This document shows positions 6,008 through 63,720 of a stretch of 64,000 nt of DNA, one piece after another; positions within the stretch are counted from its first letter, which is position 1; each line of letters starts with the position of its first letter. The notes below the pieces were generated by a model. It was given only the letters and a program-made list of their open reading frames with translations, was not told where the DNA came from and searched no databases. This DNA is from a phage, in the sequence record PZ386973.1, one strand, 5' to 3'. Both the position numbers and the translations under genes were made by a program.

Positions 6008-6775
6008 TTATTCAGCAGCCGCAGCTTTTGCATCCAGTTTAGCACGCTTAGCGGCACCATCATAGTCCTTAGCAACCAGACCACGACGAGACAGCATAGA
6101 TTTAACACCGCGCTCAGACTTACCAGTTTTCTCAGCGATCTCAGCAACAGTCATGTTAACCAGATCCAGGCCTTCTAACAGATCTTCACGAGTTTTAGCA
6201 CTTGAGGTTTCCTGTACCGGCATAGCAGCGATACGACCTTCACGAAGCAGGCTCAGAGCTTTACCACGGATCTGCTTGATATTACGACCGAAGTGAGCAG
6301 CGATAGCTTCAATAGTAGCACCAGCAACAACCTGATTAACAAAATCAGTTTCTTCATCCGGAGTGAAGGAACGAACAGCGGCGGCTTTTTCGGTTGGTTT
6401 AACAGAAGCGGTCATTTCCAGGCTCAGAATTTTACCCTGTACCTGTTTAGCACCGAACTGACCACCAGCTACAGCAGCAGCGATTTCAGCATAAGTATAC
6501 TGACCAGCATGAGCGTTCAGGAAATCAACCAGTTCAGCTTCCTGCTCAGGAGTCCACGGGGATTTCTGTACTTCGTTAGCTTTCTGTACTTCGAAACCTT
6601 CTTTACGCAGCTTAGAGCCAACAGAGCGAGCGGTAACGTCTTTGCCAGTTTCAGCAGCCAGTTCAGCGGCGATAGCAGCTACTTGTTCTTGAGAGATTAC
6701 AGAAACACCCAGAGCAGTGGCTTTTGCTTTCAGAGACTCGGTTACACCTTCTACGTTCCAGTTCAGTTTAGACAT
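6008..6775 (-). CDS. hypothetical alanine-rich protein
   Basis: 255-aa ORF with internal repeated Ala/Lys-rich segments; position between helicase and ligase genes; function not readable from sequence. Confidence 0.45.
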   Translation of the reverse strand: MSKLNWNVEGVTESLKAKATALGVSVISQEQVAAIAAELAAETGKDVTARSVGSKLRKEGFEVQKANEVQKSPWTPEQEAELVDFLNAHAGQYTYAEIAAAVAGGQFGAKQVQGKILSLEMTASVKPTEKAAAVRSFTPDEETDFVNQVVAGATIEAIAAHFGRNIKQIRGKALSLLREGRIAAMPVQETSSAKTREDLLEGLDLVNMTVAEIAEKTGKSERGVKSMLSRRGLVAKDYDGAAKRAKLDAKAAAAE

Positions 6776-62085: not shown

Positions 62086-62115
62086 TTGACAACTCATTGC
62101 GGCACATGTTATAAT
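62086..62115 (+). promoter_or_regulatory. sigma70-type promoter reading into the non-coding repeat region
   Basis: Consensus TTGACA-18 nt-TATAAT with no ORF downstream. Confidence 0.45.
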
Positions 62116-62253: not shown

Positions 62254-62467
62254 AGTAAGCTCTCATGAAATGGGGGGACTATTTACTTTTAAAATATATG
62301 AAAATATTTAAAGGCAATATCTGTGTTCAAGATGGTACACCTGTTGCCGCTCTTCTGCTAGGATGGCACAACACTTTCTTCTAGACTCCTAAGTTTATCA
62401 CGAAATACCACACTTCTAGTGGGCGGTTCTCCTAAGTTTCTAGGAACATATACTAGGCGGTTAATAC

Positions 62468-62508
62468 AGGGCGGTTATAGGGAGGGCGGTTATAGGGAGG
62501 GCGGTTAT
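62468..62508. repeat. tandem direct repeats of GGGCGGTTAT(AGGGA), three copies
   Basis: GGGCGGTTATAGGGAGGGCGGTTATAGGGAGGGCGGTTAT read directly; a further GGCGGTT copy at 62456. Confidence 0.7.
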
Positions 62509-62550
62509 TTCTAGAAGACATTTTTTGAAAACACATTTCCAGAAATTACT

Positions 62551-63150
62551 GTCGGATTTGCACACTGCATTTCTAGAAATTTATGGTCGGATTTGCACAA
62601 ACGCCTAAGTTTTTAGGAACATATAATCTCTTGAAAATAGCAGCATTATTTCGGGCCGAAGGCCCATGATTGCCTGAGTTTTTAGAGCCACAGAAATTTT
62701 CCCTTGTCAAGCTATTTTGCCACATTTAGCTAATAAAATTTTACTTTTTCTGCACCTATCTCAAATCTTCTCCAATTATCTCAACTCTTCCCCAAAATCC
62801 CGGCAAATCTGGTGCTCCGCACCAACCATGCGCCCACATCCCTCTAGTCCCCAAAATTTCTTCGTTCTCTCAACTTCTCTCCAAACCTATACAATCACAC
62901 ACCCTCTAATCGAAGTCATAAAAATCTTGTCGGATTCGCACATCTTAATCCTAGAAAAACCGTGTCGGATTTGCACATACCCCACAGGATTCGAACGCAG
63001 TTCGTGATTGCTGGAGTTTTTGGGAAAATTCATTGTCGGATTCGCACACTATAAAAATTTTTAGGGTCGGATTTGCACACTACCAAAAATTGTCGGATTC
63101 GCACATACACGCCAGCACGTAACCCGTGGAGCAAATGTCGGATTTGCACA
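62551..63150 (+). repeat. iteron array: eight direct copies of GTCGGATT(T/C)GCACA
   Basis: Copies at 62551, 62586, 62929, 62964, 63035, 63066, 63092 and 63137, all same orientation, irregular spacing. Confidence 0.8.
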
Positions 63151-63157
63151 AAAGCGC

Positions 63158-63175
63158 AGGGCAATTGCCCTGCTA
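63158..63175. repeat. perfect 18-bp palindrome GCAGGGCAATTGCCCTGC
   Basis: Read directly; immediately follows the last iteron. Confidence 0.7.
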
Positions 63176-63193
63176 GTTTGAATGCGAATAAAA

Positions 63194-63328
63194 ATGAGAA
63201 TCATTATCATTTAAAAAGCGGAATGCGAATGAGAATCATTATCATTTACGAAAGGGAATGAGAACTATTCAGGAAGTGAAACGATTCTCATTTAGATAGT
63301 GAAATGCGAATGATAATGATTCGCATTT
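63194..63328. repeat. direct and inverted repeats of GAATGAGAATCATTATCATTT
   Basis: Two direct copies (63194, 63227), a partial copy (63257) and an inverted copy (AATGATAATGATTCGCATT, about 63304). Confidence 0.7.
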
Positions 63329-63360
63329 AAAAACGGAAGTGAGAAACACTGTTATTTAAG

Positions 63361-63453
63361 TTATCCACAGACTTATCAACAGCACGATTTGACTTGACAA
63401 AATCCTAGCCATTTTGAGGCGTTATTAACAGACTTATCCACAGCTTATCCTAC
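63361..63453 (+). promoter_or_regulatory. cluster of DnaA-box-like 9-mers
   Basis: TTATCCACA at 63361 and 63434 (consensus), TTATCAACA at 63373, TTATTAACA at 63422, within a direct repeat ACAGACTTATC(A/C)ACAGC. Confidence 0.6.
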
Positions 63454-63470
63454 TGTATAAATATACAGTA
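63451..63470. repeat. perfect palindrome TACTGTATAAATATACAGTA
   Basis: Read directly; adjacent to the DnaA-box-like cluster. Confidence 0.7.
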
Positions 63471-63720
63471 TTCCTACGCAGTGAATAGTTCTAATATAGC
63501 GTTAAAACGTCCTAGATCGCATTCTAACGCGTTTAATTTTGGTGGGGATACTAAAACAAGGGGGTATTTATCTGGAGGGAGAAAAACGGGGATCAGATCC
63601 CCGTCGATTATTAGAAAAGAGGGCAATTATCCCGCTTTGCCATTTCGCGCCACTCATCCTGATGCCTAGACTTGCGACGGCGTACTAAAAACCGTTTATA
63701 CCAGTGATTAAACCATCGTT

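What the first reader, a model, noticed from the sequence alone, without database searches (positions are those of the whole stretch)
63194..63328. AT-rich direct and inverted GAATGAGAATCATTATCATTT repeats between the iterons and the DnaA boxes
Two or three direct copies and one inverted copy of a 21-bp AT-rich unit could form a cruciform or serve as a DNA-unwinding or protein-binding element. Their position between the iterons and the DnaA boxes fits an origin-like module.
Basis: seen in the sequence. Interest (0 to 1): 0.5.

Follow-up and report, generated by a model that had tools for sequence, protein, structure and literature searches.

The report
Fur-box array in T5 injection-stop region
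The repeats are the already-described "direct repeat C / palindrome E-I" array of the phage T5 injection-stop region, but their units are near-consensus binding sites for the host iron regulator Fur, next to DnaA boxes and a near-perfect LexA box, which gives a testable lead on how T5 pauses DNA injection.

Summary
The 21-mer occurs at 63192-63212, at 63227-63247 and inverted at 63308-63328, with two partial copies (chance 0.01).

The window is a T5-like phage. This stretch is orthologous to T5 "direct repeat C copies 1-4 / palindromes E-I". [quoted passage not shown] The "iterons" are T5 repeat D, and the DnaA boxes are known. The repeats themselves are therefore already described, and their function is still unknown in 2026.

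What I add: the units are Fur operator sequences.
- A literature iron-box matrix puts its best 4-5 hits in 64 kb here, at 15-20 bits, in pairs offset by 6 bp.
- A matrix built only from phage units picks out the fepA-fes, fepD-entS, fepB-entC and fhuA promoters in E. coli.
- The exact 19-mer sits upstream of iron and manganese uptake genes in many bacteria.
- Palindrome D, just beyond the DnaA boxes, matches the LexA consensus at 19 of 20 positions.

Seventeen T5-like arrays vary in length but keep 3-5 strong sites. Serratia and Vibrio relatives carry unrelated repeats in the same slot.

Best reading: a host-protein (Fur) binding platform, not an unwinding element. Fur binding and any role in the injection pause are untested.

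The parts
63190..63214 (.). Composite Fur-type site A (AAAAATGAGAATCATTATCATTTAA). Corresponds to T5 direct repeat C copy 4 / palindrome I. The calculated T5 first-step shear point (9618) maps to about 63205.
   Evidence: Two overlapping 19-mers at 63190 (20.1 bits) and 63196 (15.3 bits), 6 bp apart. 16/19 match to the Fur consensus. Alignment to T5. Shear point.
63225..63249 (.). Composite Fur-type site B (GCGAATGAGAATCATTATCATTTAC). Corresponds to T5 direct repeat C copy 3 / palindrome G.
   Evidence: 19-mers at 63225 (19.6 bits) and 63231 (17.4 bits), 6 bp apart. 16/19 match to the consensus.
63257..63293 (.). Degenerate units: truncated direct copy GAATGAGAACTATTCA (63257-63272) and partial inverted copy AACGATTCTCATTT (63280-63293). 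This part of the array varies in copy number between phages; T5 has one more ~23-bp unit here.
   Evidence: These units score below 8 bits with the iron-box matrix.
63302..63330 (.). Composite Fur-type site C, a palindrome AAATGCGAAT-GATAATG-ATTCGCATTT. [quoted passage not shown] It is the inverted copy named in the finding.
   Evidence: 19-mers at 63306 (11.7-12.3 bits) and 63312 (12.5-14.5 bits), 6 bp apart. Inverted repeats I2-I4.
63152..63173 (.). AAGCGCAGG motif, which is the site of the T5 major 7.9% single-strand interruption, overlapping palindrome J (GCAGGGCAATTGCCCTGC). On the minus strand the palindrome looks like an intrinsic terminator.
   Evidence: T5 annotation, alignment, motif position, terminator-like hit. 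The motif is conserved as far as the Serratia and Vibrio relatives.
62550..63150 (+). This is T5 direct repeat D. The binder is unknown.
63361..63442 (+). Two pairs of DnaA-type boxes, each pair 3 nt apart: TTATCCACA/TTATCAACA at 63361-63381 and TTATTAACA/TTATCCACA at 63422-63442. These are the T5 inverted repeats C' and D' with their spacer.
   Evidence: Described by Davison, bioRxiv 10.1101/866236.
63451..63470 (.). TACTGTATAAATATACAGTA, which is T5 palindrome D. It matches the LexA (SOS box) consensus TACTG(TA)5CAGTA at 19 of 20 positions.
   Evidence: The only match within 3 mismatches in 64 kb, against 0.01 expected by chance. Conserved in T5, Klebsiella, Erwinia, Serratia and Vibrio relatives.

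Best explanation
The element is this phage's copy of the T5-family 'direct repeat C / palindromes E-I' array. It lies in the non-coding injection-stop region, about 0.5 kb inside the inner end of the terminal repeat.

Its units are Fur operator sequences. There are three composite sites (A, B, C). Each consists of two overlapping 19-bp Fur boxes offset by 6 bp, and weaker half-units lie between them.

The most likely mode of action is as a multi-site landing pad for the host Fur repressor. Iron-loaded Fur dimers would bind on opposite faces of the DNA and spread, as they do at long natural operators. Together with DnaA on the four adjacent boxes and LexA on palindrome D, this would form a host-protein-loaded stretch of about 300 bp. 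That stretch sits at the point where first-step DNA transfer pauses.

Shown here: the orthology, the Fur-box nature of the sequence, and its conservation in enterobacterial T5-like phages.

Inferred: that Fur actually binds.

Speculative: what the complex does. Candidates are an anchor or roadblock at the pause point, for example stopping RNA polymerase or nucleases from moving into DNA that has not yet entered, or a read-out of host state.
For: Orthology:
- 89% identity to T5 across the region. The T5 annotation places repeat C copies 1-4, palindromes E-I, the nick, repeat D and the iss here.

Fur-box identity:
- Only two matches to GATAATGATAATCATTATC within 3 mismatches occur in 64 kb. Both are here, against 0.02 expected.
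- A matrix from 11 published iron boxes (PMC10665472) was also run with 9 boxes, omitting the consensus and the most similar site. Its top 4-5 hits in the window fall here, at 15-20 bits. The training sites themselves score 13-26 bits.
- The hits come in pairs 6 bp apart. That spacing is the reported hallmark of Fur site clusters (PMC2189734 abstract).
- Reciprocal test: a matrix built only from 33 phage units puts its top six hits in a 26-kb E. coli region in the fepB-entC, fepD-entS and fepA-fes intergenic regions. Its top hit in a 45-kb region is the fhuA promoter.
- The exact 19-mer is widespread in bacteria. Of 20 genes lying 60 nt or less downstream, 12 are iron or manganese uptake genes: 3 TonB-dependent receptors, 3 siderophore-binding proteins, FecCD, 2 Nramp, 2 FTR1 and PepSY_TM.

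Conservation and distribution:
- Seventeen distinct T5-like arrays vary from 187 to 326 bp, yet each keeps 3-5 separate sites of at least 12 bits.
- Klebsiella, Erwinia, Yersinia and Salmonella relatives have such sites in the same slot.
- The same motif family, including an identical 21-mer, forms an array in unrelated Justusliebigvirus coliphages.
- The motif occurs in at least 120 viral contigs, against 0 for a shuffled palindrome.

Neighbouring host-protein sites:
- DnaA boxes and a 19/20 LexA box.
Against: - No experiment shows Fur binding here.
- No promoter overlaps the sites, so the classical repressor role has no target.
- Serratia phage Kamaji and the Vibrio T5-like phages keep the nick motif, DnaA boxes and LexA box. 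In the same slot, however, they carry unrelated tandem repeats that score under 7 bits. Fur-type sequence is therefore not required for whatever the slot does. A lineage-specific binder is possible.
- The short units of the array score poorly.
- FhuA, the receptor of T5 itself, is most abundant when Fur is iron-free and off DNA (established Fur biology).
- T5 degrades host DNA early, so titrating Fur away from host genes would be pointless.
- The iron-box matrix rests on only 11 sites.
Confidence: 0.55

Rival explanations
1. Structural stop signal (the classical view). The direct and inverted repeats fold into hairpins or a cruciform, or otherwise distort the DNA. The DNA then cannot pass the tail or channel until the phage A1/A2 proteins act. 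Any resemblance to Fur boxes is incidental.
For: Strong hairpin potential: -25.3 kcal/mol, z = -5.0. Palindrome at 63302-63328 with 10-bp arms and a 7-nt spacer. The calculated shear point maps inside the array. The literature still lists secondary structure as a candidate mechanism.
Against: The long arms are 54-97 bp apart, which is unfavourable for cruciform extrusion. This model does not explain why the units match the Fur operator so precisely, why the exact motif recurs in unrelated phages and upstream of bacterial iron genes, or why array length and unit order vary freely while strong Fur-type sites are retained. According, T5 DNA is released completely in vitro through FhuA proteoliposomes, which argues against an intrinsic DNA block.
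Confidence: 0.12
2. Binding array for a phage-encoded protein, for example the DNA-binding pre-early protein A2 or the terminase/nicking machinery. The protein would co-evolve with its sites, and in enterobacterial T5-like phages its sites happen to resemble Fur boxes.
For: The slot between the nick motif and the DnaA boxes always holds a tandem array, but the unit differs by lineage: Fur-like in Tequintavirus, Epseptimavirus, Sugarlandvirus and Erwinia phage KEY, and unrelated units in Serratia Kamaji and Vibrio Javier and D232. This is the pattern expected for a co-evolving protein-site pair. A2 is annotated as a DNA-binding protein required for transfer.
Against: The same motif occurs in Justusliebigvirus phages, where local tblastn on two 5-kb loci around the array found no A1/A2. 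It also occurs in viral contigs with G+C from 21% to 55%. A phage protein's specificity would not stay fixed across such distances. A universal host regulator explains this better.
Confidence: 0.15
3. Part of a DnaA-dependent replication origin. Repeat D would act as iterons, the array as an unwinding or auxiliary-factor region, and the DnaA boxes as the initiator site.
For: The arrangement looks like an origin. In unrelated viral contigs, Fur-type boxes sit among clusters of DnaA boxes (L114, L139, L144, L056). This happens more often than at control positions: 5 loci against 1.3 +/- 0.5.
Against: No initiator gene is adjacent. G+C is only mildly low and there are no 13-mer unwinding repeats. 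There is no match in the plasmid collection. T5 origins were mapped near the genome centre, and replication genes are not expressed while only first-step DNA is in the cell.
Confidence: 0.08
4. Functionally neutral minisatellite: a slippage-prone tandem repeat with no role of its own.
For: Copy number varies between close relatives. The array is replaced in some lineages.
Against: Three to five high-scoring Fur-type sites are kept in every one of 17 arrays and across four host genera, while the neighbouring coding DNA diverges.
Confidence: 0.05

Closest known systems
Phage T5 injection-stop region ('Repeat Region 3'): direct repeat C copies 1-4 and palindromes E-I (GenBank AY587007 annotation; Davison, bioRxiv 10.1101/866236)
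   Same: Orthologous sequence at 86-91% identity. Same order: repeat D, nick and palindrome J, repeat C array, DnaA boxes, palindrome D, terminator. Non-coding, and inside the terminal repeat by homology.
   Different: This phage has one ~23-bp unit fewer than T5, and two of its units are closer to the Fur consensus. The T5 annotation seen and the preprint searched describe the repeats only as repeats and palindromes of unknown function. Neither Fur nor LexA is mentioned in the preprint.
Extended Fur operators of enterobacterial iron-uptake promoters (aerobactin iucA, fepA-fes, fepB-entC, fhuA)
   Same: Same 19-bp consensus and hexamer logic. Overlapping sites 6 bp apart. Scores in the range of real sites. 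The 15-nt core AATGAGAATCATTAT is shared with the listed iron box GATAATGAGAATCATTATT.
   Different: No promoter lies under the sites. The three composite sites are spread over 140 bp in a virulent phage's non-coding terminal repeat, beside DnaA and LexA boxes. Binding is not demonstrated.
Fur box at the stx1 promoter of Shiga-toxin prophages (own knowledge: Calderwood and Mekalanos 1987) and upstream of prophage sitABCD (PMC6969025)
   Same: A host Fur operator carried on a phage genome.
   Different: Those are single operators that repress a cargo-gene promoter in temperate phages. Here an array lies without a promoter in a virulent phage.
oriC-type and iteron-type replication origins
   Same: Clustered DnaA boxes, direct repeats, and a somewhat AT-rich repeat block between them.
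   Different: No initiator gene, no 13-mer unwinding element, no evidence of initiation. The location is the injection-stop region.

Membership tests
T5-type injection-stop region repeat array (direct repeat C / palindromes E-I) | Sequence homology and the same position relative to repeat D, the 7.9% nick motif, the DnaA-box inverted repeats and palindrome D | tested here: met
T5-type injection-stop region repeat array (direct repeat C / palindromes E-I) | Non-coding | tested here: met
   Only ORFs of 62 aa or fewer overlap the region. No CDS is annotated in T5 here.
T5-type injection-stop region repeat array (direct repeat C / palindromes E-I) | Lies inside the long terminal repeat | not testable with these tools
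   The window holds only one copy. By homology, the T5 repeat end maps to about 62715, so the array would lie about 0.5 kb inside the repeat.
T5-type injection-stop region repeat array (direct repeat C / palindromes E-I) | DNA transfer pauses here in vivo | not testable with these tools
   This needs blender or qPCR transfer experiments. According, two-step transfer has been shown only for T5 and BF23.
Fur operator (iron box) | Match to the 19-bp consensus / array of NAT(A/T)AT hexamers | tested here: met
   16/19 at 63190 and at 63225. These are the only such matches in 64 kb.
Fur operator (iron box) | Scores like validated sites and is interchangeable with them | tested here: met
   15-20 bits against 13-26 bits for the training sites. 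The phage-derived matrix recovers the fep/ent and fhuA operators. The exact 19-mer lies upstream of iron-uptake genes in bacteria.
Fur operator (iron box) | Clustered overlapping sites 3 or 6 bp apart | tested here: met
   Pairs at 63190/63196, 63225/63231 and 63306/63312.
Fur operator (iron box) | Overlaps a promoter that it represses | tested here: not met
   No sigma-70-like promoter lies over the sites. This feature is typical of Fur operators but does not define Fur binding.
Fur operator (iron box) | Metal-dependent Fur binding in vitro or in vivo | not testable with these tools
   Needs EMSA or footprinting, a Fur titration assay, or ChIP.
Replication origin (oriC or iteron type) | AT-rich unwinding element with 13-mer-type repeats | tested here: not met
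   31.8% G+C against 39.2% for the window. No GATCTNTTNTTTT within 2 mismatches in 63000-63600.
Replication origin (oriC or iteron type) | Initiator gene next to its iterons | tested here: not met
   The flanking genes are small pre-early ORFs and an uncharacterised ORF.
Replication origin (oriC or iteron type) | DnaA boxes | tested here: met
   Four boxes at 63361-63442.
Cruciform-forming palindrome | Inverted repeat with a short spacer | tested here: inconclusive
   63302-63328 has 10-bp arms and a 7-nt spacer. The longer arm pairs are 54-97 bp apart. The fold is favourable as single-stranded DNA. Extrusion in duplex DNA is not testable here.

The most novel reading that the evidence does not exclude
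Unrelated phages carry promoter-less non-coding modules that combine arrays of Fur operators with DnaA-box clusters and SOS (LexA) boxes. Examples are T5-like siphoviruses, Justusliebigvirus myoviruses, a 345-kb jumbo phage and many uncultured viral contigs. This would be an unrecognised class of cis-element that recruits, or reads out, the host's master sensors of iron, growth and DNA damage. In T5 this module is the long-sought injection stop signal. The host proteins loaded on it set or gate the pause between first- and second-step DNA transfer.
Probability: 0.25. Interest if true: 0.85.

Novelty: new member of a known kind. Interest (0 to 1): 0.55.

Why it matters
How T5 stops DNA injection at 8% of its genome has been open since the 1960s and is still called poorly understood in 2026. 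The candidate region has been described only as a maze of repeats and palindromes, with DnaA boxes as the single named feature.

Recognising that one repeat family is a set of Fur operators, and that palindrome D is an SOS box, turns part of that maze into named host-protein sites. The tests are simple: fur, lexA(Def) or lexA(Ind-) hosts, iron chelation, EMSA, ChIP on first-step DNA, and array replacement in both repeats.

The motif's abundance in other viral genomes also suggests that phages use Fur sites for more than regulating cargo genes.

Tried and rejected
- Plasmid or iteron replicon: no match in the plasmid collection.
- Known RNA families: only a sub-threshold MIR172 hairpin hit, 26.8 bits against a gathering score of 70. 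It reflects the inverted repeat and is noise.
- Unwinding element: no 13-mers and only mildly low G+C.
- Fur-regulated promoter: none over the sites.
- Universality in the family: rejected. Serratia Kamaji and Vibrio Javier and D232 lack Fur-type sites in this slot.
- Fur titration to derepress host iron genes: rejected on biology, because T5 destroys host DNA early.
- DnaA-trio, Zur, ArgR and IHF consensus sequences were compared by eye from memory and do not fit. This is my own knowledge, not a tool test.
- Link to terminase genes: the motif lies 1-2500 nt upstream of the large terminase gene in 23 of 38 viral loci, against 14.5 +/- 2.6 for random non-coding positions (families confirmed). 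Many of the loci are related to each other, so I treat this as a lead only.
- Per-position information correlation between phage sites and literature sites: circular, because the sites were chosen with that matrix. I give it no weight.
- Davison 2015 could not be fetched under the two ids tried. I did not try to fetch Heusterspreute 1987 or Wang 2005. 'Not previously reported' therefore applies only to the searchable library.

Full report
**What is there.** The 21-mer GAATGAGAATCATTATCATTT occurs exactly at 63227-63247. It occurs with one mismatch at 63192-63212, and inverted with three mismatches at 63308-63328. That is three matches against 0.01 expected. A truncated direct copy (63257-63272) and a partial inverted copy (63280-63293) complete the block. 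To the left lie eight copies of TGTCGGATT(T/C)GCACA (62550-63150). To the right lie four DnaA-type boxes in two pairs (63361-63442). The block has 31.8% G+C against 39.2% for the window, the 7th percentile, so it is only mildly AT-rich. As single-stranded DNA it folds at -25.3 kcal/mol, z = -5.0.

**Where it comes from.** Window 62300-64000 matches 457 phage records and no plasmid. All of the best matches are T5-like phages, at about 89% identity. A central 12-kb piece of the window is 96% identical to Escherichia Tequintavirus genomes.

In the two annotated T5 records, the finding corresponds to 'direct repeat C copies 1-4' and 'palindromes E-I'. The 'iterons' are 'direct repeat D'. The AAGCGCAGG motif at 63152 is the site of the major 7.9% nick, with palindrome J. 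The DnaA boxes lie in inverted repeats C' and D'. The whole stretch is annotated 'injection stop signal (iss)' within the left terminal repeat.

This phage has one ~23-bp unit fewer than T5. By homology, the inner end of the repeat maps to about 62715, and the calculated first-step shear point (T5 9618) maps to about 63205, inside the array.

Davison's preprint (10.1101/866236) describes these repeats in 25 phages, stresses the DnaA boxes, and says the function of the other repeats cannot be guessed. Papers from 2026 still call the mechanism poorly understood. The repeats themselves are therefore not new.

**What the units are.** The unit resembles the Fur box GATAATGATAATCATTATC. Four independent checks support this.
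1. Only two sites in the 64-kb window match that consensus within three mismatches. Both are here, at 63190 and 63225, against 0.02 expected.
2. I built a matrix from the 11 Gram-negative iron boxes listed in PMC10665472. Its five best hits in the window fall in 63190-63330, at 14.5-20.1 bits. The training sites score 13-26 bits. Leaving out the consensus and the most similar natural site, the four best hits and six of the top seven still fall there. The hits form pairs exactly 6 bp apart: 63190/63196, 63225/63231 and 63306/63312. This is the signature of Fur site clusters (PMC2189734).
3. Reciprocally, I built a matrix only from 33 distinct units of T5-like arrays. Scanned over E. coli K-12 606-632 kb, its top six hits fall in the fepB-entC, fepD-entS and fepA-fes intergenic regions. 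Scanned over 145-190 kb, its top hit is the fhuA promoter region. That these are Fur-controlled promoters is established knowledge.
4. The exact 19-mer AATGA(G/T)AATCATT(A/C)TCATT occurs in very diverse bacteria. I took 20 genes starting within 60 nt downstream, in list order. Twelve encode iron or manganese uptake proteins: three TonB-dependent receptors, three siderophore-binding proteins, FecCD, two Nramp, two FTR1 and PepSY_TM.

**Conservation.** Seventeen distinct T5-like arrays range from 187 to 326 bp between the nick motif and the conserved GGAAGTGAGAAACAC. Each keeps 3-5 separate sites of at least 12 bits, with best sites at 15.6-22.1 bits. Klebsiella (Sugarlandvirus), Erwinia phage KEY, Yersinia phiR2-01 and Salmonella UTK0009 also have such sites in this slot, with different exact sequences.

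The array is not universal, however. Serratia phage Kamaji (A1 protein 61% identical) and the Vibrio phages Javier and D232 keep repeat-D-like units, the nick motif, the DnaA boxes and palindrome D. Between the nick and the DnaA boxes they carry unrelated tandem repeats that score below 7 bits.

**Neighbouring host-protein sites.** Palindrome D (63451-63470, TACTGTATAAATATACAGTA) matches the LexA consensus TACTG(TA)5CAGTA at 19 of 20 positions. It is the only such site in the window, against 0.01 expected. It is conserved from T5 to the Vibrio relatives. T5 has a second, weaker copy beside its other DnaA-box module at 6211. Neither Fur nor LexA appears in the Davison preprint, nor together with T5 in the searchable library.

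**Beyond T5.** Justusliebigvirus coliphages (alia, vB_Eco_J-01, cardinal) are unrelated to T5. They carry an array of the same motif, including an identical 21-mer, in a non-coding region flanked by genes that read towards each other.
A shuffled palindrome of the same composition hits none.
- The hits are almost all non-coding: the median stop-free cover is 165 nt.
- Fourteen loci have three or more separate strong sites within 200 bp of the motif hit.
- In non-T5 contigs the motif sits near clusters of DnaA boxes (5 loci against 1.3 +/- 0.5 at control positions) and near LexA-like boxes (5 against 0.4 +/- 0.6).
- L114, L139, L144 and L056 look strikingly like the T5 arrangement.
- The motif also tends to lie upstream of terminase genes (23 of 38 against 14.5 +/- 2.6). 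These loci are not independent of each other.

**How it most likely works.** Shown here: the array is a set of Fur operator sequences, kept by selection in enterobacterial T5-like phages, next to DnaA and LexA sites, at the mapped pause point.

Inferred: iron-loaded Fur dimers bind the three composite sites and may spread over the weak units, as at long natural operators. With DnaA and LexA this would give a host-protein-coated stretch of about 300 bp.

Speculative: this complex acts as an anchor or roadblock at the boundary between injected and not-yet-injected DNA, or reports host state. One concrete idea rests on gene orientation. The rightward pre-early genes are transcribed towards this region and end at a terminator. 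Bound proteins and terminators could then keep RNA polymerase from drawing in second-step DNA too early.

There is no promoter for Fur to repress. Titrating Fur away from host genes makes little sense once host DNA is degraded.

**Weak points.**
- There are no binding data.
- Some relatives lack the array.
- The short units score poorly.
- The receptor of T5 itself, FhuA, is induced when Fur is off DNA.

The main rivals are a purely structural stop signal, a lineage-specific phage protein, and an origin-related role. I cannot exclude any of them, but none explains the precise and reciprocal Fur-box identity.

**Verdict.** The element is the known T5 iss repeat-C array. 'Unwinding element' is not supported, and 'origin-like' is a resemblance only. 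The new and testable point is that the units are Fur boxes beside an SOS box and DnaA boxes.

Noticed in passing
window 63451-63470: T5 palindrome D matches the LexA SOS-box consensus at 19 of 20 positions. It is the only such site in 64 kb and is conserved from T5 to the Serratia and Vibrio relatives. It is not mentioned in the T5 preprint I searched.
   Followed up: partly
window 62086-62115 (+): A perfect consensus sigma-70 promoter (TTGACA, 18-nt spacer, TG-TATAAT). It sits just after the last early ORF and reads towards the repeat region. A similar promoter is present in T5 (TTGACA ... TATCAT). A terminator-like hairpin follows at 62260-62277, so a small non-coding transcript is possible. 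Rfam finds nothing there.
   Followed up: partly
window 63156-63173 (-): Palindrome J (GCAGGGCAATTGCCCTGC followed by GCTTTTGTGC) looks like an intrinsic terminator on the minus strand. It overlaps the motif of the 7.9% nick.
   Followed up: no
window 62431-62625 and 62468-62512: Other unexplained repeats just outside the terminal repeat: three tandem 15-mers AGGGCGGTTATAGGG, and two copies of the palindromic CCTAAGTTT(C/T)TAGGAACATATA 173 bp apart.
   Followed up: no
window 62700-62900: A strongly C-rich strand-asymmetric stretch (GC skew about -0.6 to -0.7). It contains three copies of TTATCTCAACTCTTCCCCAAA-like units (T5 direct repeat A) near the mapped inner end of the terminal repeat.
   Followed up: no
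L004, L005, L008, L012, L021, L023, L024 (IMG/VR contigs): The T5 double DnaA box TTATCCACAGACTTATCAACAG occurs verbatim in unrelated G+C-rich viral contigs, directly after the end of a coding-looking stretch. It may be a widespread phage 'double DnaA box'.
   Followed up: no
L033 2255-2600 (Escherichia phage alia, NC_052655 76984-77330): An unrelated 147-kb coliphage has three ~60-bp direct repeats followed by four or five Fur-type boxes. One is identical to window 63192-63212. The region is non-coding and flanked by genes that read towards each other.
   Followed up: partly
L056 2210-2900 (IMG/VR contig, 21% G+C): At least ten Fur-type boxes are followed by a run of DnaA-like boxes. This is the same two-part layout as in T5, in a very different phage.
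   Followed up: no
L120, L047, L052, L130, L149, L152, L155; L061 and L098: Uncultured contigs carry the Fur-type motif close to distant homologues of T5 pre-early genes: dmp/polynucleotide-kinase-like genes, and A1/A2 in L061 and L098. In L120 the motif lies between the dmp-like gene and the terminase genes, where a T5-type genome end would be.
   Followed up: partly
L157 228-252 (T5 dmp gene): An 18-19.5-bit pair of Fur-type sites, 6 bp apart, lies inside the dmp coding sequence near the left genome end of T5.
   Followed up: no
L161 44581-44601 (E. coli K-12, map-rpsB intergenic region): The phage-derived matrix gives a 17.7-bit hit, AATTGAGAATCATTCTGAATT. I did not check whether this is a known Fur site.
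   Followed up: no
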